From Escherichia coli (lineage in GTDB: Bacteria; Pseudomonadota; Gammaproteobacteria; Enterobacterales; Enterobacteriaceae), in assembly GCF_003334405.1 (NCBI RefSeq), contig NZ_QOWM01000012.1: 64,000 nucleotides of DNA. One strand, written 5' to 3'. Below the pieces are notes generated by a model. The model saw only the letters and a list, made by a program, of their open reading frames with translations, was not told where the DNA came from and searched no databases. The position numbers and the translations under genes are program-made. Shown here one piece after another: positions 5,186 through 43,119 of the stretch. Each line of letters opens with the position of its first letter. Within the stretch, counting starts at the first letter, position 1.

Positions 5186-6109
5186 TTAACGCGTTCGCTG
5201 CGAAAGCACCTGCTGCTTATCCAGCTTTTGCACCAGCGGCTGCACCACTTTATCCCCATGCTGACCAAAGTATTGATACAGCGTATCGGACGCACTTTTG
5301 GTCAGCACCATAATCTCAATGCGCCGGTTGCCCGCGCTTTGCGGATTTTTGGAATCCAGCAGCATCTGGTCCGCCATTGCGCTTACCTGCATCACTTTAT
5401 CTTCCGGCATTCCGGCCTCTTCCAGCACCCGACGAGCCGAAAGCGCGCGGTCACCCGAAAGGTTCCAGTTGTTGTAGATATTGTTTTTGTAGGCCATCGC
5501 ATCGGTATGCCCGGTAATAATAATTTTATTATCGAGCGAGTCGAACACTGGCGCGAGCTCCACCAGCAGCGTTTTAAAGAACGGCATAATCTTCGCGCTG
5601 CCGCGTTCAAACATATTGCGGTTCTGGTCGTCTTTAATCAGCACGCGTAATCCCTGGGGAACAATCTCCATCTCCAGATTCGCTTCCATATGCGCATCAC
5701 GGGCAATGGTGTTGATACTGGTTGCCAGCTCACCAAGCTCGGTGGCGGATTTCTTCTTCAGCAGCGCCGTTTTCTCATTCACATCACGCGCTTTTTTCTC
5801 CGTCTCTTCCGGCACCGCCACGGTGGCAGGTTTTGGCGGATGAGACGGGCTGATTTTATTTAACGGCGACAGCCCACCACCGTTAAAAATCGACTGCCCG
5901 TGCAGCGCGGCGATAATGCTTTCACGCTCGGATTTACTGACGCTGTTGACAATCCACAGCGTCATAAACAGCGCCATCATTGCCAAAGTAAAGTCGGCGA
6001 ACGCCACCTTCCACGCCCCGCCGTGGTGCCCGGCATGATTCTTTTTGATCTGCCGCCGGACGATGGTGGTTTTTGCCCCACGATCGCGGCGGTTACCCGT
6101 CTTTCTCAT
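5186..6109 (-). CDS. lafU: lateral flagellar stator protein LafU (MotB-like)
   Basis: N-terminus ...HGGAWKVAFADFTLAMMALFMTLWIV matches the MotB TM/plug region; C-terminal OmpA-like domain; ATG placed at MRKTGNRR 2 nt after lafT stop. Confidence 0.85.
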   Translation of the reverse strand: MRKTGNRRDRGAKTTIVRRQIKKNHAGHHGGAWKVAFADFTLAMMALFMTLWIVNSVSKSERESIIAALHGQSIFNGGGLSPLNKISPSHPPKPATVAVPEETEKKARDVNEKTALLKKKSATELGELATSINTIARDAHMEANLEMEIVPQGLRVLIKDDQNRNMFERGSAKIMPFFKTLLVELAPVFDSLDNKIIITGHTDAMAYKNNIYNNWNLSGDRALSARRVLEEAGMPEDKVMQVSAMADQMLLDSKNPQSAGNRRIEIMVLTKSASDTLYQYFGQHGDKVVQPLVQKLDKQQVLSQRTR

Positions 6110-6111
6110 GC

Positions 6112-6975
6112 TTATTCTTGCTCCAGCATCGCATTCACCCACGCGTCGAGGTTGGCGAAGGTCGGTTTGGACGCCAGATGCAGTAGCTTACGCCCGGCGT
6201 CCACCGCCAGCAGCGTCGGTTTGCCGCCTGCCTGCGCCACCAGCACGGTACGCACGCATTCCAGCAAAGAATGTTCTGCCCGCGCCTGTTGTTCCATGGC
6301 GTTGGCGAGTGGGTCCATCAGGCAGTAGCAGATAAAGACGCCTAAAAATGTCCCCACCAGCGCTGCCGCCACTTTCAGGCCAATCAGGGCGATAGAGCCG
6401 TCAATCGACTGCATGGTGATGATGATGCCCAACACCGCCGCACAAATGCCAAACCCCGGCATCGCTTCGGCGGTACGTTGCAGCGAGCGCGACGGCGTTA
6501 GCAGCGACTCTTCCGCGGTGTCCAGTTCCTGATCGAGAATGCCTTCCAGTTCATGGGCGTCGATTTTACCCATCGCCATCAGGCGAAAGTTATCGGCAAT
6601 AAAGGTCACCAGCCGCTTCTGGGTTAACACCAGCGGGTATTTCTGGAAAATGGTGCTCTCTTCCGGTTGCTCAATATGTTGATCCAGCATGCGCAGACCA
6701 CCGTTTTGCACCATTTCGAGTAACTCATACAGGCACATTAATAGCTGGCGCTGAAACTCCGGCCCGAGCTGTTTTTTACTGATTACGCCTTTAATTTGAT
6801 GGGCAATCTCTTTCAGCACATGTTTCGGGTTACCAATAATCATCGCCCCGAAACCGGCACCCAAAATAATGATCATTTCCGCCGGTTGCCAGATAGCCAC
6901 TAATTGCCCGCCCGCTTCAAAATAACCGCCAAATACGCAGCCGAGCACCACCAGTAAACCTAATATTTTTTGCAT
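6112..6975 (-). CDS. lafT: lateral flagellar stator protein LafT (MotA-like)
   Basis: 287-aa multi-TM protein upstream of and coupled to MotB-like gene. Confidence 0.85.
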   Translation of the reverse strand: MQKILGLLVVLGCVFGGYFEAGGQLVAIWQPAEMIIILGAGFGAMIIGNPKHVLKEIAHQIKGVISKKQLGPEFQRQLLMCLYELLEMVQNGGLRMLDQHIEQPEESTIFQKYPLVLTQKRLVTFIADNFRLMAMGKIDAHELEGILDQELDTAEESLLTPSRSLQRTAEAMPGFGICAAVLGIIITMQSIDGSIALIGLKVAAALVGTFLGVFICYCLMDPLANAMEQQARAEHSLLECVRTVLVAQAGGKPTLLAVDAGRKLLHLASKPTFANLDAWVNAMLEQE

Positions 6976-6987: not shown

Positions 6988-7704
6988 TTAATTCGGATAG
7001 ACAAAATCACGAATTTTCTGCGCGATCTGTTTATTCAGTTGACAAATTCGGGCCTCGGTTAGCCCTAATACCAGCGCAATCTCTTTGAGATTCATCTCAT
7101 GCTGGTAATACATGGAGAGGATCAGTTGCTCTTTTTCGCTTAATTGTGAAAGCGCCTGTTGCAGCATTTGCTGGGTGACAAACTGATCTTCCAGCTCCCT
7201 GCCAGCAAGCAGAATGCCAGGCCCTTCGCCGTTCAGCAGTTCGTCCAGGCTGGCGAGCGTTTCCGCCCCTTCCAGTTGCTGATATTCGAGATAATCTTCA
7301 TGCGAGATCCCTTCCACGGCCAGTTCTGACCACTCCGGTTCGTGCCCCAGTTTTTTGCGCGTTTCGCGAATCAGATCTTTCATCTGATGATATTTCTGTC
7401 GCAGCTGGCGCGGTCGCCAGTCGAGAGCGCGCAGCTCATCCAGGATCGCGCCGCGAATACGGTGCACGGCATAGCCCGCAAAACCTTCGTCCGGCAGCCC
7501 GTAGCGACGGATGGCATTAAGCAGCCCCATTAACGCCGTTTGTTCCATATCCTGACGATCAATAATGCAATTACACTGCGGGGCAAGTTGCCGCACCACT
7601 TTACGCACCAACGGTAAATAGGCCTGCAAGTAGTGGCTCTCCTGCTGCGGGGTTAATACCGGCGCGGCAGCAAATTCTTCCGACTCGAATACATCCTGTA
7701 GCAT
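6988..7704 (-). CDS. lafS: lateral flagellar sigma factor LafS (FliA/sigma-28 family)
   Basis: 238 aa; sigma-70 region 2/4 like segments and C-terminal HTH (LKEIALVLGLTEARICQL). Confidence 0.85.
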   Translation of the reverse strand: MLQDVFESEEFAAAPVLTPQQESHYLQAYLPLVRKVVRQLAPQCNCIIDRQDMEQTALMGLLNAIRRYGLPDEGFAGYAVHRIRGAILDELRALDWRPRQLRQKYHQMKDLIRETRKKLGHEPEWSELAVEGISHEDYLEYQQLEGAETLASLDELLNGEGPGILLAGRELEDQFVTQQMLQQALSQLSEKEQLILSMYYQHEMNLKEIALVLGLTEARICQLNKQIAQKIRDFVYPN

Positions 7705-7723: not shown

Positions 7724-8191
7724 TTACTGGAAGACCACTTTTTTCACCAGCAAATCCTTATACGGTGCGCTCATTTTGCGACGCTGAAGATCTTTCTTTA
7801 ACGCGTCAGAAATGAGTTTGCGGATGGCGGATATTTTCATGCCACGCAAATCTTCAAATTTCATTTCCGTCAGGCATTCAACCGCAATACTTTGATACAG
7901 CGGCTCCTGATGTTTTATTTTTTCCGCTTCTTTGTCACTGGCGACCACCATCACTAATTCCGCCGACAAATAATGGTCCGCGCCGTTGTTGTCATGCAGC
8001 GTGACAATGGTTTCCGGCAACGTCACAAACACGCTTTTGCTTTCATCCAGGGTTTCCACCGTTTCCGTCTGCGCGGCGGCAGTCGGTTTTCCTTTTCCGG
8101 CATAATGATGCCAGACACCCCATCCAGCTCCGGCCCCCACCACCAACGCCAGAACGGCGCTGACCACGCCCGCCACCACGATTTTCTTCAT
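7724..8191 (-). CDS. lafF: FliL-like basal-body-associated protein LafF
   Basis: 155 aa, single N-terminal TM helix, position between fliK-like and fliA-like genes. Confidence 0.7.
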   Translation of the reverse strand: MKKIVVAGVVSAVLALVVGAGAGWGVWHHYAGKGKPTAAAQTETVETLDESKSVFVTLPETIVTLHDNNGADHYLSAELVMVVASDKEAEKIKHQEPLYQSIAVECLTEMKFEDLRGMKISAIRKLISDALKKDLQRRKMSAPYKDLLVKKVVFQ

Positions 8192-8198: not shown

Positions 8199-9260
8199 TT
8201 ACACTTTGATCAAAACGGATTCGTTCTGTTGAAATTGAGGCGCATCATCAAGCTGTAAGGCGGCACTCACCTCTTCCTGCTGATGGCCCGACTGTTGTTG
8301 TTGCTGCGACTGCCCTTCGGAGGAGACCTGTACGTTCACCTCCATAAAATTTTGCGCCGTCAGATGCTGGCGGAGATCGTCGCTAAACTGCTGTAACGCG
8401 CGGCAAACTTCACTTTGGTTCGCGCCGATGTGCACCATCAGTTTGCCGTTGTCGAGTTGTACGGCGATCTCGAGCTTGCCAAGCGACGGTGGATCGAGAC
8501 GGATGGTGGAGATCTGCTGTTGTTTGTTGAGCTGAAAGTGGATCTGATCTTTCAAAAGCGTCGTCAGTTTTTCGCCCAGTTCGTCCATCGAAAGCGTGGC
8601 TGGTTTGGCGACAATCTCCTGATGCTCGCTGAGCAGCTCCGGCGTCTTAACCTGCAACACCGCACGCGCAATAACCGGTTCGCTGTCCGGCACTTTTTCC
8701 GTTTTACGCTCGACCTGCGGGCGCGCGGTCACACGGGTTAGTTCAGGTTTTGGGCGAGCTGGCTGTGTTGAAACGCGCGGCTGCGTCGGCGCAATGGCAT
8801 GTAAATCTTCACTGGCGTAAGTCGCCAGTCTGGCCTGCTGTTCGGGCTTCGCCTGTGGCAACTGACTGATCAGTTCCTGCAACTGCGGCGGCAACGGCGT
8901 GAGTTCCTGCTGTTGCGTCTGGCGTTGCGGCGCGTTTTGCACCACCGCTTTCGTCAATTGCTGGATAACCGGCGATGTTGCGACGTTTCGCGGCTGCGGC
9001 GTGTGCTGATGCGGCGCGGCAGGTTGTGGAAGTAACAGCGCCATTAGCGCCTGCATCGCCACCGGATCGTTCTCCTGCGGGCGCGTCGCCTGTTGCTGAC
9101 TGGTTTTAGCGCTATGAACGCGCTCCGCCACCGCCGCGACCGCCATTTTCGGCAGGGTAAACGCGGGCGCGTTTTCACCGCTCACCGGCGGTAAAATATC
9201 CGCCTTCAACGAAGCGGTTTCCGCAAGCGTTCCGAGCGTGGCAAGCAATGCCGGATTCAT
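8199..9260 (-). CDS. lafE: hook-length control protein LafE (FliK-like)
   Basis: 353 aa, Q/P-rich central region and conserved FliK C-terminal domain (IRLDPPSLGKLEIAVQLDNGKLMVHIGANQSEV). Confidence 0.7.
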   Translation of the reverse strand: MNPALLATLGTLAETASLKADILPPVSGENAPAFTLPKMAVAAVAERVHSAKTSQQQATRPQENDPVAMQALMALLLPQPAAPHQHTPQPRNVATSPVIQQLTKAVVQNAPQRQTQQQELTPLPPQLQELISQLPQAKPEQQARLATYASEDLHAIAPTQPRVSTQPARPKPELTRVTARPQVERKTEKVPDSEPVIARAVLQVKTPELLSEHQEIVAKPATLSMDELGEKLTTLLKDQIHFQLNKQQQISTIRLDPPSLGKLEIAVQLDNGKLMVHIGANQSEVCRALQQFSDDLRQHLTAQNFMEVNVQVSSEGQSQQQQQSGHQQEEVSAALQLDDAPQFQQNESVLIKV

Positions 9261-9568
9261 GACTTCTCCGAAAGTAAATTAACAATTGAGTAGGCGAGCA
9301 CACCTTCCTGATGCCGCTGATGCTGTTCCATACGCGCCTTCAACACTTCTGCGCGCTGCTCGCGCCGTTTAATCAGGGCATTAAACGCGCCGTACAAATG
9401 CGCCTTTACCGCACAGAACTGCGCCGCGTCGGTTTCCGCCGCCGCGTAATCGTGAAACTGGCGCATCAACTGCTGATGCAGTGCCGGAAGGCGTCGCCAG
9501 CGTTGCTTGTCGAGGGCTTCATTCATCGCCTCGACCAGTGCGAAAAGTTGCCTGCGTTGTTTTTCCAT
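9257..9568 (-). CDS. lafD: FliT-like export chaperone LafD
   Basis: 103-aa helical protein between fliS-like and fliK-like genes. Confidence 0.55.
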   Translation of the reverse strand: MEKQRRQLFALVEAMNEALDKQRWRRLPALHQQLMRQFHDYAAAETDAAQFCAVKAHLYGAFNALIKRREQRAEVLKARMEQHQRHQEGVLAYSIVNLLSEKS

Positions 9569-9572: not shown

Positions 9573-9965
9573 TTAACCCAGCTTGCCCGAAAGCCCTTCC
9601 CAGCCTTCGCGCAGGTTGCTTAAGATCAGCATCACTTCATCGATTTTCTCTGCCGATAATTCGCCGCTGGCCTCATACAATCGGTAAACGCAGTGGTCAT
9701 AGAGTCGCGAAAGGTTGACCACCAGCTCACCGCCGGTTTCAAACTCCAGCGAACTGGTAAGCGCATTGAGAATGTCGATGCATTTATTGATGCTCTGGGC
9801 TTTCTTCTCGAAACGCCGCCCTTCAATATGGCTTTTGGCGCGTTCCAGCTCGTCCATCAGGCCAGAAAACAGCACCAGCACCAGTTCCAGAGGCGATGCC
9901 GCCGCAGTACGCGCCGCGAGATCGATCTCTTTATATTGTGAATAGCCGTCCTGTACTTGGTACAT
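9573..9965 (-). CDS. lafC: flagellin-specific chaperone LafC (FliS-like)
   Basis: 130 aa; FliS-like N-terminus MYQVQDGYSQYKEIDL. Confidence 0.8.
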   Translation of the reverse strand: MYQVQDGYSQYKEIDLAARTAAASPLELVLVLFSGLMDELERAKSHIEGRRFEKKAQSINKCIDILNALTSSLEFETGGELVVNLSRLYDHCVYRLYEASGELSAEKIDEVMLILSNLREGWEGLSGKLG

Positions 9966-9987: not shown

Positions 9988-11304
9988 TTACGCGAATGCC
10001 GCCATGCTGGCTTTCATGGTGTACACCTCGACCAGCGTGTTGGTGTACTCCTCGAGATAACGGTCGTAGTTGGCGTTATAGGTATCGGTAAGCTGATCGC
10101 CTTCGTCCTGAATTTTGCTCATCTGATCGTCAATGTTCTGCTGGCGCAGGGTGATGATGCCGTTGCTGGAGTCCGTGTAGGTGTTAATCAGGTCGTCCAT
10201 CTGCGCCACCATGCTGTTGTCGCCAACGAAAATAGAGGTCAGACCGTCAGGATTTTTCGCCATTTCGTCGTTGAACTGGTCGGAGTCAATCTGTAAGTGG
10301 CCGTGAGAATCAAGCGTGATGCCATAGTCAACAATCGACACGCCGTTGTAGTTGGCATGGGCGATGTCATCGAGCTGGTTCGCCAGTGAATTGAGTCCGG
10401 CGTCGCCTGCAAATACCCCGGCGCTGGTACTGTCATCACCATGAGTAGTCAGTGAATCAACCGTATCAATCAAGGTGTTATAGGCATCGACAAAGGTCTG
10501 TACTTTCTCCTGACTGGCGCTGGAATCTTCGCTGATGTTAAAGGTAGTGAGATCGCTGTCAGAATCGCTGACTTCGGTGAAAGTCATGGTGACGCCGGGG
10601 ATCACATCATCAAATGTATTGCTGCTGTTGGTGATCTCAGGCCCTGTGGCGCTACCGAGATGAATAATCGCGTCCTGAGCGGAGGAAACATCCGTGGCAA
10701 CGGGCGCGCTGGCGCTATCGTTGCTGGCATCATGCCCCGTTACGCTCACCGAAAACGCGCTCTGCGCCCCGGTGCTATCCGAGGTGAGCATAATCGTGGT
10801 GGTGCCGTCGGTTTTTACCAGCGCAGCCGACACGCCCGGATTGTCATCGGAGTCGTTAATCGCATTCACCAGTTCACTGGCGTCGATAAAACCGTCGCCG
10901 TCACCGTTCTGATCCGCCGCCGCCAGATCAATATCCATGGTGCTGTCGCCCATGGTCATTTCGAACGTCCCCGTCGCAGAAAAGGTGTCATCACCCATAC
11001 TGAACGTGGTCTGCTGCCCCTGCGCCAGTTGTTCAACGAAAAACGAGTAGCTTCCCGCCTGCGCCTGCGAGTTAGCGGAAACGGTCGCCGAGTCATTATT
11101 GCTGGTGGCAGCGAAGGTCACCGGGCCGTCGGTATCGCTGTTTAGCGCATCCACGGCGCTCTGGAAATCGCTCAACGCCGAGCTGAGCGAGTCCAGGCCG
11201 CTGCTTTCGGCATCCAGCTCCGTTTGCTTCTCCTGCAAGTTTGCCGCCTGAGTGGCGACATCTGCATAAGCGATTTCTTGCGCAATGGTTCTTGGGTTGA
11301 TCAT
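9988..11304 (-). CDS. lafB: filament cap protein LafB (FliD-like)
   Basis: 438 aa, S/T/D-rich, conserved FliD termini. Confidence 0.8.
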   Translation of the reverse strand: MINPRTIAQEIAYADVATQAANLQEKQTELDAESSGLDSLSSALSDFQSAVDALNSDTDGPVTFAATSNNDSATVSANSQAQAGSYSFFVEQLAQGQQTTFSMGDDTFSATGTFEMTMGDSTMDIDLAAADQNGDGDGFIDASELVNAINDSDDNPGVSAALVKTDGTTTIMLTSDSTGAQSAFSVSVTGHDASNDSASAPVATDVSSAQDAIIHLGSATGPEITNSSNTFDDVIPGVTMTFTEVSDSDSDLTTFNISEDSSASQEKVQTFVDAYNTLIDTVDSLTTHGDDSTSAGVFAGDAGLNSLANQLDDIAHANYNGVSIVDYGITLDSHGHLQIDSDQFNDEMAKNPDGLTSIFVGDNSMVAQMDDLINTYTDSSNGIITLRQQNIDDQMSKIQDEGDQLTDTYNANYDRYLEEYTNTLVEVYTMKASMAAFA

Positions 11305-11486
11305 TGATGACTCCGGATAACGATGTCAGGTTATTGGCAAAAGGCGTGCCAATAATTTTTATGTGAATAATCAATAGATTGAAAAATGGGCGGAAAGGCC
11401 ATTTCCGGTCTGGTGGAAATACGCCTGCCGCAGAAAGAACAACACCGCCCGCAGGCGGTGTTGAGACTGATGACAAACGCAACACT

Positions 11487-12554: not shown

Positions 12555-12580
12555 AAAACGACACCTCGGGAGCAAACTTA
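12555..12580 (-). promoter_or_regulatory. possible sigma-28 (LafS)-type promoter of lafA
   Basis: Coding-strand TTAAGTTT-N11-GTCGTTTT about 45 nt upstream of lafA ATG; weak -10 match to GCCGATAA. Confidence 0.25.
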
Positions 12581-17210: not shown

Positions 17211-17289
17211 GTTGGATCCTTACCGGTAAATCGTGCCGGTTAAAAGCGGCGTGAAGATGGGGATTCTTAAATTCCGTAAACCGGGTGCC

Positions 17290-17505
<216 letters not shown>

Positions 17506-22732: not shown

Positions 22733-22743
22733 GGCACCGGACA

Positions 22744-35160: not shown

Positions 35161-35502
35161 TTAGATCGACATACTCATCAGGTCGTTAAACCCGGTGGCG
35201 ATTTTATTGCGCACCTGCACCAGCGCGGAGAAAGAGAGCGACGCCTGCTGGCTGGCGATCATCGCACCTGCCAGGTCATCACTTTTGCCCGTGTCGACAG
35301 CCGTTTGCTGCTGCTCCGCCACCTGCTGGAACTGATCAACATGACCAAGCGCGCCGTACATAATGCGGTTAAACGACACGTCCGGGTCTGTGGAACTGAA
35401 GGTCATGGCGGGTAGCACCGGCGCCTGGGCGTTGGCCTGCATCCGCTGCACGTCCTGCATGATTTGCGCCTGCATGGTGCTGTTGATTGTGGTAATGCTC
35501 AT
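35161..35502 (-). CDS. lfiE: basal body protein LfiE (FliE-like)
   Basis: 113 aa, 14 nt downstream of lafK. Confidence 0.8.
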   Translation of the reverse strand: MSITTINSTMQAQIMQDVQRMQANAQAPVLPAMTFSSTDPDVSFNRIMYGALGHVDQFQQVAEQQQTAVDTGKSDDLAGAMIASQQASLSFSALVQVRNKIATGFNDLMSMSI

Positions 35503-36503: not shown

Positions 36504-36626
36504 AGGGTGAACGATATCAGTAGCGACAGAAAACAGGATATTGTGAAGCGTATCACCGGCGGGATTAACAAGTTCGAATTAAACGATAATAAAAATATTA
36601 TTTTATGGTAAACAATGAGTTATCCA

Positions 36627-36710
<84 letters not shown>

Positions 36711-36889
36711 GGTTCGTGCAATGTGTTATGACGATGCCTGATATCTAGCCCTTTAATAATTTAATTATTTTTTCATCCTATTAATAATTTGCCCCTTTCA
36801 CTCCCCCTCTATTTAATACCTCACCTTGTGTCACTGCCGGATTTGCGTGCACAAAATCGCCCATACCATTACAGCAGAGAAAGTAAGCC

Positions 36890-37741
36890 ATGCTGAAGTA
36901 CAGTAAAACGCCAGGCATCTTTAAATTAGAAGGTAATCGGCTCGGACGCCCCTACCATCACCTGCCGACCCTGTTTACGGGGAATTTTGACGTGATTGAT
37001 TCGCATCTGGGCAGCTACTTTCTCAAAAAGCATCGCAGCAATATCACCTTAAAAAAGATTGGCTGCGAAATGGATATTATTAATAAAAACGCTGAACTAA
37101 TGATTTCCCAGGTCGGGCATCTGGCGTTTGATATTGATCGCTCCTTGCTGTTAATGCTGCTGGGCAATTTTTATGGTCTGGAGTCGTCTCTTGAAGAGGC
37201 GAAAGCGCATAACGGCCTGCCGACCAAAACCGAAACACGATTAAAGAACCGACTCGCGCTGGATATCTGCACGCTGATATTTAATCTGCAAACCTCCGGT
37301 ATTGCGCTGAAATTAAAGCTGGACAGCAGCACGGTGATTACCCACTGGGCGTATCAATTAACCTTTACCCTTGCGGGCGATGAAGAGAGCTGTTTTCGTA
37401 TTTTGCTCGACGACGCCCACACCGATTTTATTTTAAATCTGATCCGCCACAGCGAGCACAGTAAACCGCAGCAGGTGGCGAAATCCGTCAATAAACCGGC
37501 CCTGATTAAAGAGATCATCCGCTCCCTGCCGCTGACCCTGAACGTCAAAATCGCCGAGCTATCGATGAATGTCGCGGATCTCACGCAGATAAAAGCCGGG
37601 GATATTTTACCCATCTCGCTGGGAGAAACGTTCCCGGTGGCGATTGGGCAATCTGAATTATTTAGCGCCCTGATTGTGGAAGACAAAGACAAACTGTTTT
37701 TGTCGGAGCTGGCGGGCAAAAATGAGAATAGCCATGAGTAA
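36890..37741 (+). CDS. lfiM: switch protein LfiM (FliM-like)
   Basis: 283 aa, position upstream of fliN-like gene, C-terminal SpoA-like region. Confidence 0.7.
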   Translation: MLKYSKTPGIFKLEGNRLGRPYHHLPTLFTGNFDVIDSHLGSYFLKKHRSNITLKKIGCEMDIINKNAELMISQVGHLAFDIDRSLLLMLLGNFYGLESSLEEAKAHNGLPTKTETRLKNRLALDICTLIFNLQTSGIALKLKLDSSTVITHWAYQLTFTLAGDEESCFRILLDDAHTDFILNLIRHSEHSKPQQVAKSVNKPALIKEIIRSLPLTLNVKIAELSMNVADLTQIKAGDILPISLGETFPVAIGQSELFSALIVEDKDKLFLSELAGKNENSHE

Positions 37742-38105
37742 GCAAGAAGATATTTTAGCCGGGGATTTTGGCCTCACCGATGAAGTTGCGCCTGTCGCAA
37801 AATCCGCCGACGCTGAAACGCTGGTCACCCGCCTGGAAGACCGTTTTTCCGACTCGATGACGCTGCTAAAACGCATTCCGGTGACCTTAACGCTGGAAGT
37901 GTCGTCGGTGGAGATCATGTTAGCCGACCTCCTTAACATCGACGACGACACGGTGATTGAGCTGGATAAACTCGCCGGGGAGCCGCTGGATATTAAAGTG
38001 AACAATATCCTGCTGGGCAAAGCGGAAGTGGTGGTGGTCAACGAGAAGTACGGCCTGCGCGTGCTGGAATTTAACACCCGCGATATCAACGACCTGGCAC
38101 CATGA
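37734..38105 (+). CDS. lfiN: switch protein LfiN (FliN-like)
   Basis: SpoA domain (…LEVSSVEIMLADLLNIDDDTVIELDKLAGEPLDIKVNNILLGKAEVVVVNEKYGLRVLEF); start ambiguous (37722 or 37734). Confidence 0.8.
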   Translation: MSKQEDILAGDFGLTDEVAPVAKSADAETLVTRLEDRFSDSMTLLKRIPVTLTLEVSSVEIMLADLLNIDDDTVIELDKLAGEPLDIKVNNILLGKAEVVVVNEKYGLRVLEFNTRDINDLAP

Positions 38106-38854
38106 AACGCCGCACTCAACTGACGCTGGGCCTTGGGCTGCTGGCGCTTGCGCCGCTGGCAATCGCCCAGGGCGGCGATATTGCGCTGCTTAACGTGGTC
38201 ACCCACGGCAACACTCAGGAGTACAGCGTCAAAATTCAGGTACTGATTCTGATGACCCTCGTCGGTTTGCTGCCGACGATGGCGCTGATGATGACCTGCT
38301 TTGCGCGCTTTATTATCGTGCTGTCGCTGCTGCGCCAGGCGCTAGGGCTGCAACAAACGCCGCCAAACCGCATTCTGATTGGCATTGCGCTCTCCCTCAC
38401 CATGCTGGTGATGCGCCCCATCTGGCTCAATATTTACGACCACGCAGTAGTGCCGTTCGAAAACGATCAGATTACCCTGACCGATGCGTTAAGCACCGCC
38501 GCGACGCCACTCAAACGCTTTATGCTGGCGCAGACCGACAAAAAAGCGATGGCGCAAATCATGACCATCGGAGGCGCGAAGGGCAATGCCGCCGACCAGG
38601 ATCTCTCTATCGTGGTGCCCGCCTATGTGTTGAGCGAGCTGAAAACCGCTTTCCAGATTGGCTTTATGATTTACATCCCGTTTCTGGTTATCGACCTGAT
38701 TGTCGCAAGCGTACTGATGGCGATGGGGATGATGATGCTGTCGCCGCTGATTGTTTCGCTGCCCTTTAAGCTGATGCTGTTTGTGCTGATCGACGGCTGG
38801 TCGCTGACCATCGGCACGCTCACCACCAGCATTCGCGGGCTGGGGCTGGGCTGA
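38102..38854 (+). CDS. lfiP: export gate protein LfiP (FliP-like)
   Basis: 250 aa, signal peptide plus TM helices, FliP family. Confidence 0.9.
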   Translation: MKRRTQLTLGLGLLALAPLAIAQGGDIALLNVVTHGNTQEYSVKIQVLILMTLVGLLPTMALMMTCFARFIIVLSLLRQALGLQQTPPNRILIGIALSLTMLVMRPIWLNIYDHAVVPFENDQITLTDALSTAATPLKRFMLAQTDKKAMAQIMTIGGAKGNAADQDLSIVVPAYVLSELKTAFQIGFMIYIPFLVIDLIVASVLMAMGMMMLSPLIVSLPFKLMLFVLIDGWSLTIGTLTTSIRGLGLG

Positions 38855-38856
38855 TT

Positions 38857-39129
38857 ATGTTGACCGTAGACGTTGCCGCCGACATTGTCGCCAGCGGCAT
38901 AAAAGTAGTGATTTTGCTGGTTTCGGTACTGGTGGTGCCGAGTTTGCTGGTCGGCCTGCTGGTGAGCGTGTTCCAGGCGGTAACGCAGATTAACGAACAG
39001 ACCCTGAGCTTTTTGCCGAGGCTGATTGTCACGCTGGTGGTGCTGGGCGTGTGCGGCAAATGGATGATTATCCAGTTGCATGATCTCTGCATTCACCTGT
39101 TTACCCAGGCCGCCCTGCTGGTGCATTAA
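38857..39129 (+). CDS. lfiQ: export gate protein LfiQ (FliQ-like)
   Basis: 90 aa, two TM helices. Confidence 0.9.
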   Translation: MLTVDVAADIVASGIKVVILLVSVLVVPSLLVGLLVSVFQAVTQINEQTLSFLPRLIVTLVVLGVCGKWMIIQLHDLCIHLFTQAALLVH

Positions 39130-39130: not shown

Positions 39131-39913
39131 ATGCGCACAAGCGACGTTACGCAACTGATGGATCTGGCGCTGGGGCTGTGGTTTCCCTTTGTGCGCATTA
39201 TGGCGTTTCTGCGCTATGTGCCAGTGCTGGATAACAGCGCCCTGACCGTGCGCGTGCGGATTATTTTGTCGCTGGCGCTGGCAATCATCATCACGCCGTT
39301 AATTCCGCATCCCATTCCCCACGACCTGCTTTCACTCAACAGCCTGATCCTGACGGTGGAGCAAATTTTATGGGGCATGTTATTCGGGCTGATGTTTCAG
39401 TTTTTGTTTCTGGCGCTACAGCTGGCCGGGCAAATTCTCTCGTTCAATATGGGGATGAGCATGGCGGTGATGAACGACCCGAGCAGTGGCGCATCGACCA
39501 CCGTGCTGGCGGAGCTCATCAACGTCTACGCGATCCTGCTGTTTTTTGCCATGGACGGGCATCTGCTGCTGGTGAGTGTGCTGTATAAGGGCTTTACCTA
39601 CTGGCCGATTGGCAACGCGCTGCATCCGCAAACCCTGCGCACCATCGCGCTGGCCTTTAGCTGGGTGCTGGCGTCCGCATCGCTGCTGGCGCTGCCAACC
39701 ACTTTTATCATGCTGATTGTGCAGGGCTGCTTTGGCCTGCTCAACCGCATTGCGCCGCCGCTGAACCTTTTTTCACTCGGTTTTCCCATCAACATGCTGG
39801 CGGGGCTGGTCTGCTTTGCCACCCTGCTCTACAACCTGCCGGATCACTATCTGCATCTGGCGAATTTTGTGTTGCAGCAACTCGACGCGCTGAAAGGTCA
39901 CTATGGCGGATAG
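39131..39913 (+). CDS. lfiR: export gate protein LfiR (FliR-like)
   Basis: 260 aa polytopic membrane protein; ATG 1 nt after lfiQ stop. Confidence 0.85.
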   Translation: MRTSDVTQLMDLALGLWFPFVRIMAFLRYVPVLDNSALTVRVRIILSLALAIIITPLIPHPIPHDLLSLNSLILTVEQILWGMLFGLMFQFLFLALQLAGQILSFNMGMSMAVMNDPSSGASTTVLAELINVYAILLFFAMDGHLLLVSVLYKGFTYWPIGNALHPQTLRTIALAFSWVLASASLLALPTTFIMLIVQGCFGLLNRIAPPLNLFSLGFPINMLAGLVCFATLLYNLPDHYLHLANFVLQQLDALKGHYGG

Positions 39914-41042
39914 CAGCAGCGAAGAAAAAACAGAAAAACCCTCGGCGCAAAAGCTGCGTAAAGCGCGTGAAGAGGGGCAACTGCCGCGCTCGAAGGATAT
40001 GGGGCTGGCGGCGAGCCTGTTTGCGGCGTTTGTGGTGATCTCCAGCAGCTTCCCGTGGTATGCCGATTTTGTGCGCGAGAGTTTTATCAGCGTGCATCAG
40101 TACGCGCAGGAGATTAATAACCCGGAGGTGATCGGCCAGTTTCTGCGCCATCACCTGTTAATACTCGGCAAGTTTATTCTCACCTTGCTGCCGATGCCCG
40201 CTGCCGCGCTACTCTCTTCGCTGGTGCCCGGCGGCTGGCTGTTTCTGCCGAAAAAAATCCTCCCGGATTTCAGCAAAATCAGCCCGTTAAAAGGCATTGG
40301 GCGGCTGTTTTCCAGTGAACATCTGGCGGAAACGGGAAAGATGACGGTGAAGTCGGTGGTGGTGCTGGTGATGCTGTGGGTAAGCCTGCGCAATAACTTT
40401 GCCGCCTTTCTCGGCCTGCAGGCGCTACCGTTCAAACTGGCGATGAATGAGGGTTTATCGCTCTACGCCTGCGTGATGCGCAACTTTGTCATCCTGTTTA
40501 TCTTCTTTGCGTTAATCGACGTGCCGCTGGCGAAAGCCCTGTTTACCAAAGGGCTGAAGATGACCAAACAGGAGCTGAAAGAAGAGTATAAAAACCAGGA
40601 AGGCAAGCCGGAAGTGAAGGCGCGCGTGCGGCGTCTGCAACGGCAGTTGGCGATGGGGCAAATTCGCAAAGTGGTGCCGAAAGCCAACGTGGTGATCACC
40701 AACCCGACCCACTACGCCGTGGCGTTGCAGTATGACTCGTCGCGCGCCGCCGCGCCGTTTGTGGTGGCGAAAGGCACCGATGAAATCGCCCTCTATATTC
40801 GCCAGGTCGCCGCTGAGAATCAGGTGGAAGTGGTCGAGTTCCCGCGACTGGCGCGCTCGGTTTACTACACCACCCAGGTGAACCAGCAAATTCCGTTTCA
40901 GCTTTACCGGGCCATCGCCCACGTTCTGACCTACGTCCTGCAAATGAAACACTGGCGCGAGGGTGCACAGCCGCGCCCGGCCCTGAACAGACATATTTCC
41001 ATTCCCAAAGAGGTGCTTAAACTGGATGGCGAAAACAACTAA
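39903..41042 (+). CDS. lfhB: export switch protein LfhB (FlhB-like)
   Basis: 379 aa; NPTH autocleavage motif (VITNPTHYAVAL). Confidence 0.9.
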   Translation: MADSSSEEKTEKPSAQKLRKAREEGQLPRSKDMGLAASLFAAFVVISSSFPWYADFVRESFISVHQYAQEINNPEVIGQFLRHHLLILGKFILTLLPMPAAALLSSLVPGGWLFLPKKILPDFSKISPLKGIGRLFSSEHLAETGKMTVKSVVVLVMLWVSLRNNFAAFLGLQALPFKLAMNEGLSLYACVMRNFVILFIFFALIDVPLAKALFTKGLKMTKQELKEEYKNQEGKPEVKARVRRLQRQLAMGQIRKVVPKANVVITNPTHYAVALQYDSSRAAAPFVVAKGTDEIALYIRQVAAENQVEVVEFPRLARSVYYTTQVNQQIPFQLYRAIAHVLTYVLQMKHWREGAQPRPALNRHISIPKEVLKLDGENN

Positions 41043-43119
41043 ATCGTTCCTCGCGCTGCTGCGCGGCGGCAATCTCGGCGTGCCGCTGGTGATCCTGTGT
41101 ATTCTGGCGATGGTTATTTTGCCGCTGCCGCCTGCGCTGCTGGATATTCTGTTCACCTTCAACATTGTGCTGGCGGTGATGGTGCTGCTGGTGGCGGTGT
41201 CGGCGAAACGACCGCTGGAATTCAGCCTGTTCCCGACCATTTTGCTGATCACCACCTTAATGCGCCTGACGCTTAACGTTGCTTCTACGCGCGTGGTGCT
41301 GCTGCACGGGCATCTCGGCGCGGGCGCGGCGGGTAAGGTGATTGAGTCGTTTGGTCAGGTGGTGATCGGCGGCAACTTTGTCGTCGGCTTCGTGGTGTTT
41401 ATCATCCTGATGATCATCAACTTTATTGTCGTCACCAAAGGGGCCGAGCGTATTTCCGAGGTTTCTGCCCGCTTTACCTTAGACGCGATGCCCGGCAAAC
41501 AGATGGCGATTGACGCCGATCTTAACGCCGGATTGATCAACCAGGCGCAGGCGCAAACCCGGCGTAAAGATGTTGCCAGCGAGGCCGATTTCTACGGCGC
41601 GATGGACGGGGCATCGAAGTTTGTGCGCGGGGACGCCATCGCCGGGATGATGATTCTGGCGATCAACCTGATCGGCGGCGTCTGTATCGGGATCTTCAAA
41701 TACAACCTGAGCGCCGATGCTGCCTTCCAGCAGTATGTGCTGATGACCATCGGCGACGGCCTGGTGGCGCAGATCCCTTCCCTGCTGCTCTCCACCGCGG
41801 CGGCGATTATCGTCACCCGCGTCAGCGACAACGGCGATATCGCCCATGACGTGCGTAACCAGCTGCTGGCAAGCCCGTCGGTGCTCTACACCGCCACCGG
41901 GATTATGTTCGTGCTGGCGGTGGTACCGGGAATGCCGCACCTGCCGTTTTTGCTGTTCAGCGCCCTGCTTGGTTTTACCGGCTGGCGGATGAGCAAACAG
42001 CCGCTGGCGGCGGAGGCGGAAGAGAAAAGCCTCGAAACGCTGACCCGCACCATCACCGAAACCAGCGAGCAGCAGGTCAGTTGGGAAACCATTCCGCTGA
42101 TCGAGCCTATCAGTTTAAGCCTCGGTTACAAACTGGTGGCGCTGGTGGACAAAGCACAGGGTAACCCGCTCACCCAGCGGATTCGCGGCGTGCGGCAGGT
42201 GATTTCTGACGGCAACGGCGTGCTGCTGCCGGAGATCCGCATTCGGGAAAACTTCCGCCTTAAGCCCAGTCAGTACGCCATTTTCATCAACGGCATAAAG
42301 GCTGATGAAGCGGATATTCCGGCGGATAAACTGATGGCCCTGCCCTCCAGCGAAACCTACGGCGAGATTGACGGCGTGCAGGGGAACGACCCGGCGTACG
42401 GGATGCCGGTCACCTGGATCCAGGCGGCGCAGAAAGCGAAGGCGCTGAATATGGGGTATCAGGTGATCGACAGCGCCAGCGTGATCGCTACCCATGTAAA
42501 TAAGATTGTGCGCAGCTATATTCCTGATTTGTTTAACTATGATGATATTACGCAGTTGCATAACCGTTTATCGTCGACGGCACCGCGTCTGGCGGAAGAT
42601 TTGAGCGCGGCGCTCAATTACAGCCAGTTGCTGAAAGTGTACCGGGCGCTGCTGACCGAAGGCGTTTCCCTGCGCGATATCGTCACCATCGCCACCGTGC
42701 TGGTCGCCAGTAGCACGGTGACGAAAGATCATATTCTGCTGGCGGCCGATGTGCGCCTGGCATTGCGGCGCAGCATTACCCATCCGTTCGTTCGCAAGCA
42801 GGAGCTGACGGTGTATACGCTGAATAATGAGCTGGAAAATCTGCTGACCAACGTGGTGAATCAGGCGCAACAGGGCGGGAAAGTGATGCTCGACAGCGTG
42901 CCGGTCGATCCGAATATGCTCAACCAGTTCCAGAGTACGATGCCACAGGTGAAAGAGCAGATGAAAGCGGCGGGGAAAGACCCGGTGCTGCTGGTGCCAC
43001 CGCAGCTGCGCCCTTTGCTGGCGCGTTATGCAAGGTTGTTTGCGCCGGGGCTGCATGTGCTGTCGTATAACGAAGTGCCGGATGAGCTGGAGTTGAAGAT
43101 TATGGGGGCGTTGATGTAA
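41026..43119 (+). CDS. lfhA: export apparatus protein LfhA (FlhA-like)
   Basis: 697 aa; N-terminal 8-TM domain and cytoplasmic domain, FlhA family. Confidence 0.95.
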   Translation: MAKTTKSFLALLRGGNLGVPLVILCILAMVILPLPPALLDILFTFNIVLAVMVLLVAVSAKRPLEFSLFPTILLITTLMRLTLNVASTRVVLLHGHLGAGAAGKVIESFGQVVIGGNFVVGFVVFIILMIINFIVVTKGAERISEVSARFTLDAMPGKQMAIDADLNAGLINQAQAQTRRKDVASEADFYGAMDGASKFVRGDAIAGMMILAINLIGGVCIGIFKYNLSADAAFQQYVLMTIGDGLVAQIPSLLLSTAAAIIVTRVSDNGDIAHDVRNQLLASPSVLYTATGIMFVLAVVPGMPHLPFLLFSALLGFTGWRMSKQPLAAEAEEKSLETLTRTITETSEQQVSWETIPLIEPISLSLGYKLVALVDKAQGNPLTQRIRGVRQVISDGNGVLLPEIRIRENFRLKPSQYAIFINGIKADEADIPADKLMALPSSETYGEIDGVQGNDPAYGMPVTWIQAAQKAKALNMGYQVIDSASVIATHVNKIVRSYIPDLFNYDDITQLHNRLSSTAPRLAEDLSAALNYSQLLKVYRALLTEGVSLRDIVTIATVLVASSTVTKDHILLAADVRLALRRSITHPFVRKQELTVYTLNNELENLLTNVVNQAQQGGKVMLDSVPVDPNMLNQFQSTMPQVKEQMKAAGKDPVLLVPPQLRPLLARYARLFAPGLHVLSYNEVPDELELKIMGALM

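What the first reader, a model, noticed from the sequence alone, without database searches (positions are those of the whole stretch)
5186..43119. Apparently intact Flag-2 lateral flagellar system
All expected structural, export, motor and regulatory genes are present as uninterrupted ORFs of the expected sizes, including lfgC, lfhA and lafU (K-12 has only fragments of the last two), together with sigma-54 and sigma-28 type promoter motifs. By sequence alone the locus looks capable of producing a second, proton or sodium driven flagellar system.
Basis: partly seen in the sequence, partly recalled or inferred. Interest (0 to 1): 0.5.

Follow-up and report, generated by a model that had tools for sequence, protein, structure and literature searches.

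The report
Intact E. coli Flag-2 flagellar locus
This is a complete copy of the well-known second ("Flag-2", lateral-type) flagellar gene cluster that about a quarter of E. coli strains carry; every gene is open and long-term selection has kept it working, but such intact copies are already described, none has been shown to make flagella in E. coli, and this copy has one unusual amino-acid change in a rod protein.

Summary
Observation confirmed. Window 5186-43119 runs exactly from the lafU stop to the lfhA stop and holds 42 uninterrupted genes between dinB and rayT, the canonical E. coli Flag-2 site. There are no frameshifts, premature stops or IS elements. Every conserved component covers its NCBIfam profile end to end, key motifs are intact, and gene lengths equal those in other alleles. 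K-12's flanks are 100% identical and lack window ~5955-41406, so this is the pre-deletion form of the K-12 lfhA'/lafU' scar.

New here: dN/dS is about 0.06 against four diverged alleles (dS 0.06-0.21), so the locus has been under strong purifying selection. Exact sigma-54 sites precede lafB and lfgB. A divergent sigma-28-like motif occurs only before lafA, lfgK and lfgM. The stator is the proton (MotAB) type, not the sodium type.

Caveats: this copy has a private LfgG T115I change in the Y-T-R-x-G motif (Thr/Ser in 123 of 127 FlgG relatives, Ile in none; absent from 5,426 genomes). Published tests of a comparable intact locus (EC958) found no LafA expression.

Not novel: about 23% of E. coli carry the core, 3 of 7 sampled loci are fully intact, and intact copies are already reported (W, Crooks, EC958, PCN033). 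Low interest.

The parts
5186..6109 (-). lafU, MotB-type stator protein with an OmpA-like peptidoglycan-binding domain (307 aa)
   Evidence: NF005273 LafU equivalog 578.6 bits (cutoff 383), profile 1-297/297. Channel Asp39 in FADF. K-12 keeps only 5186-5954.
6112..6975 (-). lafT, MotA-type (proton) stator protein (287 aa)
   Evidence: TIGR03818 MotA1 375.5 bits, 1-281/282; PomA only 21.1 bits. MPGFG and DPLA prolines present.
6988..7704 (-). lafS, sigma-28 (FliA-type) factor (238 aa)
   Evidence: NF009091 447.4 bits, 1-233/233.
7724..8191 (-). lafF, FliL-like basal-body-associated protein (155 aa)
   Evidence: Weak FliL matches. Named a FliL family protein by PGAP in C1.
8199..9260 (-). lafE, FliK-type hook-length control protein (353 aa)
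   Evidence: YscP/FliK C-terminal domain match. PGAP name in C1. Same length in 4 alleles.
9257..9568 (-). lafD, small protein with no family match (103 aa)
   Evidence: No NCBIfam hit. Same length in 4 alleles, omega 0.16-0.21.
9573..9965 (-). lafC, FliS flagellin chaperone (130 aa)
   Evidence: TIGR00208 79.2 bits, 2-118/124.
9988..11304 (-). lafB, FliD filament cap (438 aa)
   Evidence: NF005955 32-455/465.
11337..11351 (-). Exact sigma-54 promoter consensus TGGCACGCCTTTTGC, 31 nt before the lafB ATG
   Evidence: The same site was reported in PCN033 (PMC4578781).
11595..12509 (-). lafA, lateral flagellin (304 aa); carries G61D, a polymorphism shared with 40 genomes
   Evidence: NF033376 lat_flg_LafA_1 667.8 bits (cutoff 440), 1-304/304. 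omega 0.01-0.02. G61D matches the Asp in solved Vibrio flagellins.
12555..12580 (-). Sigma-28-like motif TAAGTTT-N11-GTCGTTTT, 45 nt before the lafA ATG
12995..13837 (+). lafZ, ToxR/CadC-like regulator: N-terminal winged helix, one hydrophobic segment, C-terminal domain (280 aa)
   Evidence: Pfam Trans_reg_C residues 25-97. Hydrophobic stretch GLMGLALTAAVIFIGSTVGY seen in the sequence.
13896..14873 (-). lafW, Flag-2-specific putative hook-associated protein (325 aa)
   Evidence: No NCBIfam hit. PGAP name in C1. omega 0.06-0.09.
14890..15819 (-). lfgL, hook-filament junction protein (309 aa)
   Evidence: TIGR02550 196.2 bits.
15834..17210 (-). lfgK, hook-filament junction protein (458 aa); T30I shared with FORC_081
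   Evidence: TIGR02492 347 bits, 2-437/437. The equivalent FlgK residue is Val.
17243..17269 (-). Sigma-28-like motif TAAGAAT-N12-GCCGCTTT upstream of lfgK
17347..17424 (-). REP/BIME element (Rfam naRNA4) in the lfgJ-lfgK spacer
   Evidence: RF02564 83.9 bits.
17514..17813 (-). lfgJ, rod-binding domain only, no muramidase domain (99 aa)
   Evidence: All Enterobacteriaceae relatives are about 99-106 aa with PF10135 only.
17813..18913 (-). lfgI, P-ring protein (366 aa)
   Evidence: NF003676 450.6 bits, 2-344/344.
18928..19593 (-). lfgH, L-ring lipoprotein (221 aa)
   Evidence: NF009072 433.1 bits, 1-220/220.
19797..20582 (-). lfgG, distal rod protein (261 aa) with the private T115I substitution (nt 20239)
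   Evidence: TIGR02488 348.6 bits, 1-258/259. T115 column: T 112, S 11, I 0 of 127. Variant absent from 5,426 genomes.
20661..21398 (-). lfgF, proximal rod protein (245 aa)
   Evidence: NF009280 314.7 bits, 1-245/246.
21398..22600 (-). lfgE, hook protein (400 aa)
   Evidence: NF005286 534.4 bits, 1-402/402.
22638..22735 (.). REP-like repeat in the lfgD-lfgE spacer
   Evidence: Query positions 1241-1338 match almost every E. coli genome.
22744..23457 (-). lfgD, hook cap (237 aa)
   Evidence: NF007198 219 bits, 10-217/218.
23457..23888 (-). lfgC, proximal rod protein, intact here (143 aa) but frameshifted in 042
   Evidence: TIGR01395 130.2 bits, 3-136/137. The 042 copy has 2 gaps and 5 stops and is flagged 'frameshifted'.
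23891..24226 (-). lfgB, proximal rod protein (111 aa)
   Evidence: NF009328 155.6 bits, 1-116/116.
24264..24278 (-). Exact sigma-54 promoter consensus TGGCACGGCGATTGC, 36 nt before the lfgB ATG
24308..25045 (+). lfgA, P-ring assembly chaperone (245 aa)
   Evidence: TIGR03170 115.7 bits.
25060..25087 (+). Sigma-28-like motif TAAAGTTT-N12-ACCGCTTT upstream of lfgM
25126..25404 (+). lfgM, anti-sigma-28 factor (92 aa)
   Evidence: TIGR03824 45.5 bits, 1-97/98.
25417..25845 (+). lfgN, FlgN-type chaperone (142 aa)
   Evidence: PGAP name in C1. No NCBIfam hit at 1e-8. Same length in 4 alleles.
25923..25937 (+). Near-consensus sigma-54 site CGGCACGCTTATTGC, 34 nt before the FliB-like gene
25973..26902 (+). 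VR1 gene: FliB-like putative flagellin lysine-N-methylase (309 aa); private A152V
   Evidence: NF038110 42.6 bits, below the cutoff of 85. No Pfam hit. PGAP calls the O6:H16 pseudogene 'lysine-N-methylase'.
27081..29525 (+). VR1 gene: large glycosyltransferase (814 aa), GT2 domain plus a weak TagF-like region; private H213Q and G643S
   Evidence: Pfam Glycos_transf_2 residues 20-134 (E 2.4e-17); Glyphos_transf residues 605-728 (E 0.009).
29643..30038 (-). VR1 gene: TagD-like cytidylyltransferase (131 aa)
   Evidence: TIGR01518 115.1 bits, below the cutoff of 165.4; 1-123/125.
30041..30475 (-). lfiJ, export apparatus stalk protein (144 aa)
   Evidence: TIGR02473 59.4 bits, 2-141/141.
30478..31815 (-). 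lfiI, export ATPase (445 aa)
   Evidence: NF005535 772 bits (cutoff 715), 2-433/434. P-loop GSGVGKS.
31808..32518 (-). lfiH, ATPase regulator (236 aa)
   Evidence: NF009925 316.6 bits, 2-227/228.
32522..33532 (-). lfiG, rotor/switch protein (336 aa)
   Evidence: TIGR00207 202 bits, 12-329/338.
33510..35156 (-). lfiF, MS-ring protein (548 aa)
   Evidence: TIGR00206 222 bits, 19-554/555.
35161..35502 (-). lfiE, MS-ring/rod adaptor (113 aa)
   Evidence: TIGR00205 72.5 bits, 1-71/71.
35517..36503 (-). lafK, sigma-54-dependent activator without a receiver domain (328 aa), first gene of the lafK-lfiEFGHIJ operon
   Evidence: Pfam Sigma54_activat 6-172, AAA lid, HTH_8. GETGAGKE, GAFTGA and LLLDE present.
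36504..36889 (.). Divergent lafK/lfiM control region, 43% GC, containing a REP/BIME element at 36631-36707; no recognisable sigma-54, sigma-28 or sigma-70 promoter
36890..37741 (+). lfiM, switch protein (283 aa)
   Evidence: PGAP names it FliM/FliN family. No NCBIfam hit at 1e-8. omega 0.04-0.08.
37734..38105 (+). lfiN, switch protein (123 aa)
   Evidence: TIGR02480 83.5 bits, 2-75/77. 100% amino-acid identity in all 4 alleles.
38102..38854 (+). lfiP, export gate protein (250 aa)
   Evidence: TIGR01103 240.6 bits, 1-196/197.
38857..39129 (+). lfiQ, export gate protein (90 aa)
   Evidence: TIGR01402 79.6 bits, 2-85/88.
39131..39913 (+). lfiR, export gate protein (260 aa)
   Evidence: TIGR01400 175.3 bits, 6-239/245.
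39903..41042 (+). lfhB, export switch protein (379 aa)
   Evidence: TIGR00328 342.1 bits, 1-348/348. NPTH at residue 267.
41026..43119 (+). lfhA, export gate protein (697 aa); K-12 keeps only 41407-43119
   Evidence: TIGR01398 775.4 bits (cutoff 772.1), 3-677/678. K-12 alignment.
5943..5954 (.). Left arm of the imperfect 9/12 repeat (CTGTTGACAATC) at the K-12 deletion junction
41407..41418 (.). Right arm of the imperfect repeat (CTGATGATCATC) at the K-12 deletion junction

Best explanation
Window 5186-43119 is a complete, canonical E. coli Flag-2 (lateral-type) flagellar gene cluster of 42 genes in 37.9 kb, sitting between dinB and rayT. It is the undeleted form of the lfhA'/lafU' scar found in K-12.

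Shown here: all genes are open and full length, catalytic and structural motifs are intact, and the locus has evolved under strong purifying selection.

Inferred mechanism, by homology with the Vibrio and Aeromonas Laf systems and from the promoter motifs:
1. The early operons lafK-lfiEFGHIJ and lfiMNPQR-lfhBA are transcribed from an AT-rich divergent region under an unknown signal. The ToxR-like membrane regulator LafZ may be involved, and H-NS-type silencing may apply.
2. LafK has no receiver domain, so its activity is probably set by its abundance. Together with the host's sigma-54 it fires promoters at lfgB (rod, hook and rings), at lafB (cap, chaperones, hook-length control, LafS and the stator) and probably at the flagellin-modification genes.
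3. After hook-basal-body completion and export of LfgM, LafS (sigma-28) transcribes lafA, lfgKL-lafW and lfgMN.
4. A proton-driven LafTU stator turns the filament.

Whether this particular copy assembles a working flagellum is open. It carries a private LfgG T115I change at a near-invariant rod position, and no E. coli Flag-2 has yet been seen expressed.
For: Identity and position: RefSeq annotation of near-identical C1, FORC_081 and CP8-3; equivalog-level NCBIfam hits above cutoff for LafA, LafU, LfiI and LfhA. Intactness. Motifs. Purifying selection: concatenated omega 0.057-0.086 at dS 0.06-0.21 against 4 alleles, and lafA omega 0.01-0.02. K-12 relation. Scar present in 4087 of 5426 genomes and the lfgB-lfgE core in 1273 of 5426. 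Hierarchy: exact sigma-54 sites at lafB and lfgB and a near-consensus site at the FliB-like gene; sigma-28-like motif only at lafA, lfgK and lfgM. Proton stator: MotA1 375.5 bits against PomA 21.1 bits. Gene organisation as in Ren 2005, as summarised in PMC6993521.
Against: No expression or function is shown. EC958, with a comparable intact locus, made no LafA and showed no Flag-2 motility (PMC4637896). LfgG T115I is absent from all 5,426 complete genomes, and Ile is absent from 127 FlgG relatives. On the recent branches leading to the window and to C1, Flag-2 changes are 12 non-synonymous to 4 synonymous, against about 0.16:1 long term (Fisher p about 1e-7). This could mean recent relaxation of constraint, or only the usual lag in purging new mutations. 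The top-level promoters were not recognised. The sigma-28-like motif was defined post hoc. LfgJ lacks a muramidase domain, and no MotY or Maf homologue is in the locus.
Confidence: 0.85

Rival explanations
1. Intact but cryptic: the locus is structurally sound yet transcriptionally silent in this strain under all ordinary conditions, for example through xenogeneic silencing of the AT-rich control regions or loss of the inducing input. In practice it would then contribute nothing to motility.
For: No LafA expression in EC958 at 28 or 37 C in broth or soft agar (PMC4637896). 042-type loci were never seen active (PMC3032704, PMC6993521). The control spacers are AT-rich (35% GC upstream of lafA/lafZ, 43% at lafK/lfiM) and lack recognisable promoters. 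A REP/BIME element sits inside the lafK/lfiM control region.
Against: omega of about 0.06 over dS up to 0.2 is hard to reconcile with a locus that is never expressed. Only a few laboratory conditions have been tested in the literature.
Confidence: 0.45
2. Recently disabled by a missense change: ORFs are intact, but LfgG T115I (YTRDG to YIRDG) impairs distal-rod assembly, so this strain cannot complete a Flag-2 basal body.
For: The position is Thr in 112 and Ser in 11 of 127 diverse FlgG representatives and Ile in none, and it is flanked by an invariant Arg and Gly. LfgE and LfgF in the window keep YTRxG. The variant is in 0 of 5,426 genomes. Other lineages lose the system through single lesions in different genes: lfgC, lafT, lafZ and the GT.
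Against: The effect of this substitution is untested. K, R, M and A each occur once at this column, so it is not absolutely invariant. The change could also be a sequencing error, since 5 of the 6 private changes are G:C to A:T.
Confidence: 0.25
3. The apparatus is kept for a role other than locomotion, for example as a protein export device or an adhesin/surface structure. This would explain conservation without observable motility.
For: Proposed by De Maayer et al. from cargo genes in other taxa (PMC6993521). Strong constraint is seen on the export gate and ATPase genes.
Against: In this window the stator, flagellin, cap and junction proteins are just as constrained (lafT omega about 0, lafA 0.01-0.02, lfgK 0.02-0.04), which points to a rotating filament. 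VR1 here holds only flagellin-modification-type genes, VR2 is empty, and there are no effector-like cargo genes.
Confidence: 0.1
4. A decaying relic that merely has not yet acquired a disruptive mutation.
For: 75% of genomes have deleted it. 4 of 7 sampled carriers have at least one pseudogene. There is an excess of non-synonymous changes on the terminal branches.
Against: Long-term omega is about 0.06, and gapless orthologues have identical lengths across alleles that differ at up to 20% of synonymous sites. A neutral relic would show omega near 1 and frequent indels.
Confidence: 0.05

Closest known systems
E. coli Flag-2 locus as defined in strain 042 (Ren et al. 2005; surveyed by De Maayer et al. 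2020, PMC6993521)
   Same: Same chromosomal site (dinB side to rayT/yafL side). Same three clusters: lfhAB-lfiRQPNM-lafK-lfiEFGHIJ, lfgNMABCDEFGHIJKL and lafWZABCDEFSTU. Same VR1 gene types (FliB-like, GT, cytidylyltransferase). 92-100% amino-acid identity per gapless gene.
   Different: lfgC is intact here and frameshifted in 042. The RelE/HTH toxin-antitoxin pair between lafW and lafZ in 042 is absent here. 042 has small in-frame length differences in lfgD and lafK. This copy has the private LfgG T115I.
Published 'intact lfgC' E. coli Flag-2 loci: W and Crooks (PMC3032704), ST131 EC958 (PMC4637896), PCN033 (PMC4578781)
   Same: Full gene complement with intact lfgC, no toxin-antitoxin pair in VR2, and sigma-54 sites upstream of lfgB and lafB as reported for PCN033. 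The ST131-like M24 locus has identical gene lengths.
   Different: About 95% nucleotide identity to the ST131-type allele over lfgB-lfgE. M24 has three extra hypothetical genes in VR1. This allele sits on a K-12-identical flank haplotype.
Lateral flagellar (Laf) systems of Vibrio parahaemolyticus, Aeromonas hydrophila and Plesiomonas shigelloides, which are experimentally functional
   Same: Same gene repertoire and operon logic (lafK at the head of the fliE-J-type operon, divergent from fliM-flhA; lafA to lafU block). LafK/sigma-54 and sigma-28 tiers. Proton-type LafTU stator. LafA matches the second lateral-flagellin NCBIfam model, lat_flg_LafA_2, at 280 bits, below its cutoff of 365.
   Different: LfgJ is 99 aa and rod-binding only, against a 328-aa FlgJ_L annotated as a peptidoglycan hydrolase in Plesiomonas (PMC4481668). 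No MotY_L or Maf-5 homologue is in the locus; instead there are GT2, FliB-like and cytidylyltransferase genes. LafZ and LafW are Flag-2-specific. LafU is 307 aa against 455 aa in Plesiomonas. Function is unproven in E. coli.

Membership tests
Enterobacterial Flag-2 locus (Ren 2005 / De Maayer 2020) | Single co-localised locus bounded by lfhA and lafU, at the dinB / rayT(yafM) site in E. coli | tested here: met
   Annotation of near-identical genomes and the K-12 comparison.
Enterobacterial Flag-2 locus (Ren 2005 / De Maayer 2020) | Three clusters with the conserved core gene set (14 + 14 + 11 genes), in the canonical order and orientation | tested here: met
   All 39 core genes plus 3 VR1 genes were found, open and in order. 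Organisation as described in PMC6993521.
Enterobacterial Flag-2 locus (Ren 2005 / De Maayer 2020) | Flag-2-specific proteins LafK (sigma-54 activator), LafZ (transmembrane regulator) and LafW | tested here: met
   LafK Pfam architecture. LafZ Trans_reg_C plus a hydrophobic segment. LafW orthologous in all alleles.
Enterobacterial Flag-2 locus (Ren 2005 / De Maayer 2020) | LafA and LafU reach the curated NCBIfam equivalog cutoffs | tested here: met
   LafA NF033376 667.8 against 440; LafU NF005273 578.6 against 383.
Functional lateral flagella (Vibrio/Aeromonas/Plesiomonas Laf) | Lateral flagella are made and drive swarming or viscous-medium motility | not testable with these tools
   Needs EM, motility assays and LafA immunoblots. 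The published EC958 test was negative (PMC4637896).
Functional lateral flagella (Vibrio/Aeromonas/Plesiomonas Laf) | LafK/sigma-54 class 2 tier and sigma-28 class 3 tier | tested here: inconclusive
   Exact sigma-54 sites at lafB and lfgB. The sigma-28-like motif at lafA, lfgK and lfgM is divergent from the FliA consensus and was defined post hoc. No transcription data.
Functional lateral flagella (Vibrio/Aeromonas/Plesiomonas Laf) | Proton-type MotAB-like stator (LafT/LafU) | tested here: met
   TIGR03818 375.5 bits against PomA 21.1 bits. Asp39 in LafU and the conserved prolines in LafT are present.
Functional lateral flagella (Vibrio/Aeromonas/Plesiomonas Laf) | Dual-domain FlgJ_L with a peptidoglycan hydrolase domain (328 aa in Plesiomonas) | tested here: not met
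   LfgJ is 99 aa with the rod-binding domain only, as in all Enterobacteriaceae relatives (PMC4481668).
Functional lateral flagella (Vibrio/Aeromonas/Plesiomonas Laf) | Accessory MotY_L (Vibrio) or Maf-5 (Aeromonas/Plesiomonas) encoded with the system | tested here: not met
   None of the 42 proteins matches such a family, and no such gene is annotated in C1. The same absence was noted for W and EC958 (PMC3032704, PMC4637896). Only the locus was examined, not the rest of the genome.

The most novel reading that the evidence does not exclude
E. coli Flag-2 is a functional, conditionally expressed, proton-driven second flagellar system maintained by selection. The ToxR-like LafZ and the receiver-less LafK would gate it in response to a signal absent from standard laboratory tests. 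Its flagellin would be methylated and glycosylated, possibly with glycerol phosphate, by the VR1 genes. Because this allele sits on flanks identical to K-12, it would offer a ready route to restoring and studying the system in the K-12 background.
Probability: 0.35. Interest if true: 0.55.

Novelty: already known. Interest (0 to 1): 0.15.

Why it matters
Taken by itself it matters little. Flag-2 has been known since 2005, about a quarter of E. coli carry it, and intact copies have been published repeatedly. The open question is why a 38-kb, energetically costly apparatus stays under strong purifying selection (omega about 0.06 here) when nobody has seen it expressed in E. coli. This window adds three modest points. 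It gives a per-gene selection estimate. It gives a candidate LafS promoter motif that differs from the FliA consensus. It also shows that an ORF-level call of 'intact' can hide a potentially damaging private missense change (LfgG T115I). The flanks identical to K-12 make this allele a natural donor for reconstructing the locus in K-12.

Tried and rejected
1. LfgJ (99 aa) as an ancient truncation hidden by the REP-filled 303-bp spacer, because Plesiomonas FlgJ_L is 328 aa. Rejected: relatives in many Enterobacteriaceae genera are all about 99-106 aa with PF10135 only.
2. LafA G61D and LfgK T30I as damaging private changes. Rejected: G61D is in 40 genomes and matches the Asp in solved Vibrio flagellins, and the residue equivalent to T30 is Val in Flag-1-type FlgK.
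3. The E. coli FliA consensus TAAAG-N14-GCCGATAA with up to 3 mismatches. It gave no hit at any expected operon start.
4. Sigma-70 consensus scans of the lafK/lfiM and lafA/lafZ spacers. Matches were no more frequent than in shuffled sequence.
5. An exact direct repeat at the K-12 deletion ends. Only an imperfect 9/12 repeat is present.
6. Two-piece BLAST 'places' spanning more DNA than the query raised the idea of a rearrangement in other strains. They are probably explained by REP copies and variable REP-containing spacers. Each case was not dissected.
7. Pfam on the FliB-like protein gave nothing.
8. The original Ren 2005 paper (PMC545627) is not held in the library, so it is cited only through papers that describe it.
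9. The terminal-branch N:S excess cannot be told apart from the normal lag of purifying selection, because the flanks hold too few differences to serve as a control.

Full report
**What is there**

The window is E. coli chromosome. The segment 5186-43119 matches about 1,012 of 5,426 complete E. coli genomes over at least 80% of each half. It is 99.96% identical to strain C1, where RefSeq annotates an unbroken series of flagellar genes from lafU to flhA between dinB and rayT, with no pseudogene flags.

**Intactness**

- I extracted 42 CDSs from the window itself, and all are open and in frame.
- Against curated NCBIfam profiles, every conserved component aligns essentially end to end. Examples are LafU 1-297/297, LafT 1-281/282, LafS 1-233/233, LafA 1-304/304, LfgE 1-402/402, LfgH 1-220/220, LfgC 3-136/137, LfiI 2-433/434, LfhB 1-348/348 and LfhA 3-677/678.
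- Proteins without a family model (LafD, LafW, LfgN, LfiM) have the same length in four diverged alleles.
- Functional motifs are present: NPTH in LfhB; GETGAGKE, GAFTGA and LLLDE in LafK; GSGVGKS in LfiI; the channel Asp (FADF) in LafU; and MPGFG and DPLA in LafT.
- lfgC, which is frameshifted in reference strain 042, is intact here.

**Relation to K-12**

K-12 MG1655 aligns to both sides of the locus. The only three "mismatches" are the three differing positions of an imperfect 9/12 repeat at the junction (CTGTTGACAATC at 5943-5954, CTGATGATCATC at 41407-41418). K-12's flanks are therefore 100% identical to this window, and K-12 lacks window ~5955-41406. It retains 769 nt of lafU and 1713 nt of lfhA, the same sizes reported independently for an ST131 strain (PMC5369007). 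The same contiguous scar is present in 4,087 of 5,426 genomes at 94-100% identity. The lfgB-lfgE core is present in 1,273 of 5,426 genomes.

**Selection**

I compared the window gene by gene with four diverged alleles: ST131-like M24, ETEC O6:H16, 042 and CFSAN027350. Concatenated dN/dS is 0.057-0.086 at dS 0.06-0.21, over about 8,000 synonymous sites. The housekeeping neighbour dinB gives about 0-0.02 against the same alleles. The stator (lafT about 0), flagellin (lafA 0.01-0.02), junction proteins and export gate are all tightly constrained. This argues strongly against a long-dead relic, and for a rotating filament over an export-only device.

**Decay in other lineages**

- 042 has lost lfgC.
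- CFSAN027350 has lost lafT.
- O6:H16 has lost lafZ and the FliB-like gene.
- ET474 has lost the glycosyltransferase.
- C1, M24 and FDAARGOS_1288 show no pseudogene flags.

Three of seven sampled loci are thus fully intact, so an intact locus is ordinary.

**Subtle changes in this copy**

I polarised the differences from C1 using the other alleles. This gives six non-synonymous changes and one synonymous change on the window's branch within Flag-2, and six to two on C1's branch.

- Two of the window's changes are shared with FORC_081: LafA G61D and LfgK T30I. G61D is in 40 genomes, and they look benign. Asp occupies the LafA position in solved Vibrio flagellins, and Val occupies the LfgK position in FlgK.
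- Four are absent from all the closest genomes: LfgG T115I, FliB-like A152V, and GT H213Q and G643S.
- LfgG T115I changes YTRDG to YIRDG. In 127 diverse full-length FlgG representatives the position is Thr in 112 and Ser in 11 and never Ile, and it is flanked by an invariant Arg and Gly.
- Solved FlgG structures show Thr or Ser there. LfgE and LfgF in this window keep YTRxG. No complete E. coli genome shares the variant.
- Its effect is unknown. It is the one feature that could make this "intact" locus non-functional, and sequencing error is not excluded.
- The terminal-branch excess of non-synonymous changes is significant against the long-term ratio (p about 1e-5 to 1e-8). It may simply reflect mutations not yet purged.

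**Regulation**

- LafK is a sigma-54 AAA+ activator starting at residue 6, with a lid and a Fis-type HTH and no receiver domain. It heads the lafK-lfiEFGHIJ operon.
- LafZ has an OmpR/ToxR-type winged helix followed by one hydrophobic segment.
- Exact sigma-54 consensus sites lie 31 and 36 nt upstream of lafB and lfgB. A one-mismatch site lies 34 nt upstream of the FliB-like gene. PCN033 was reported to have the first two (PMC4578781).
- The E. coli FliA consensus does not hit the expected starts.
- A related motif, TAA(A)G-N14-16-RYCGYTTT, occurs exactly three times in the window. All three are upstream of lafA, lfgK and lfgM, the operons expected to be sigma-28 dependent, against 0.42 expected by chance. 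The pattern is post hoc.
- The divergent lafK/lfiM spacer (43% GC, with a REP/BIME inside) and the lafA/lafZ spacer (35% GC) have no recognisable promoters. The trigger at the top of the hierarchy cannot be read from the sequence.

**Differences from proven lateral systems**

- LfgJ is 99 aa with the rod-binding domain only. This is the norm across Enterobacteriaceae Flag-2, but Plesiomonas FlgJ_L is 328 aa and annotated as a peptidoglycan hydrolase (PMC4481668). A hydrolase must presumably act in trans (inference).
- No MotY or Maf-5 homologue is in the locus.
- VR1 instead holds a FliB-like gene, an 814-aa GT2 protein with a weak TagF-like region, and a TagD-like cytidylyltransferase.
- The stator is the proton type: MotA1 scores 375.5 bits against 21.1 bits for PomA.

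**Literature and verdict**

Flag-2 was defined in 042 by Ren et al. 2005, which I could consult only through citing papers. It occurs in 24% of E. coli, and 78% of enterobacterial Flag-2 loci have the full core set (PMC6993521). Intact-lfgC loci are described in W and Crooks (PMC3032704), EC958 (PMC4637896) and PCN033 (PMC4578781). EC958 showed no LafA expression and no Flag-2-dependent motility. I found no report of E. coli Flag-2 function in the library searched.

This copy carries one specific caveat, LfgG T115I.

Noticed in passing
window 2013-5954 and 41407-46477: Both flanks of the locus, including the retained parts of lafU and lfhA, are 100% identical to K-12 MG1655 over about 9 kb. 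Intact alleles in other lineages differ at up to 20% of synonymous sites. The K-12 scar therefore lies on the same haplotype as this intact allele, which bears on when and how the deletion spread.
   Followed up: partly
window 17347-17424, 22638-22735, 36631-36707, 43197-43274, 43939-44016, 47268-47345: REP/BIME elements (Rfam naRNA4) populate several Flag-2 spacers, including the lafK/lfiM control region. They also flank rayT (43343-43840), the REP-associated tyrosine transposase gene that lies directly next to lfhA. Spacer lengths such as lafA-lafB (290 bp here, 204-409 bp elsewhere) vary between alleles.
   Followed up: partly
window 25973-30038: VR1 pairs a TagD-like cytidylyltransferase with an 814-aa GT2 protein that has a weak CDP-glycerol glycerophosphotransferase-like region (E 0.009), plus a FliB-like gene preceded by a near-consensus sigma-54 site. 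This hints that LafA might be modified with glycerol phosphate as well as methylated. Two of the window's private substitutions fall in the GT.
   Followed up: partly
window 11508-11550: Rfam ES036 (CssrF) sRNA match (44.6 bits, gathering score 37.6) in the lafA-lafB spacer, just upstream of the sigma-54 promoter of lafB.
   Followed up: no
window 36890-37741: The LfiM N-terminus (MLKYSKTPGIFKLEG...) shows no obvious counterpart of the CheY-P-binding LSQxEIDALL motif that I recall from E. coli FliM. If that holds, the Flag-2 motor may not be under chemotactic switching control. This rests on memory only and was not tested.
   Followed up: no
window 1811-2546: prfH and the adjacent rtcB-family gene are truncated remnants here. 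They are flagged as partial pseudogenes in C1 and FORC_081, and K-12 also has pseudogenes at this site (ykfJ, prfH). They are intact in 042, M24 and CFSAN027350.
   Followed up: no
window ~52000-64000: Downstream of yafV lie an ISAs1-family transposase, a group II intron D1-D4 fragment (53349-53469, RF01999) and a partly degraded type VI secretion/Rhs cluster. By C1's annotation this cluster has a truncated tssK, an Hcp gene and an N-terminally truncated RHS core protein, followed by icmH/dotU, tssH, vasI and tssA.
   Followed up: partly
window 1196, 18005, 20239, 26427, 27719, 29007: Of the six base changes private to this window relative to its three closest database genomes, five are G:C to A:T transitions and four are non-synonymous. 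The number is small. It could reflect ordinary mutation bias, relaxed constraint or sequencing error.
   Followed up: partly
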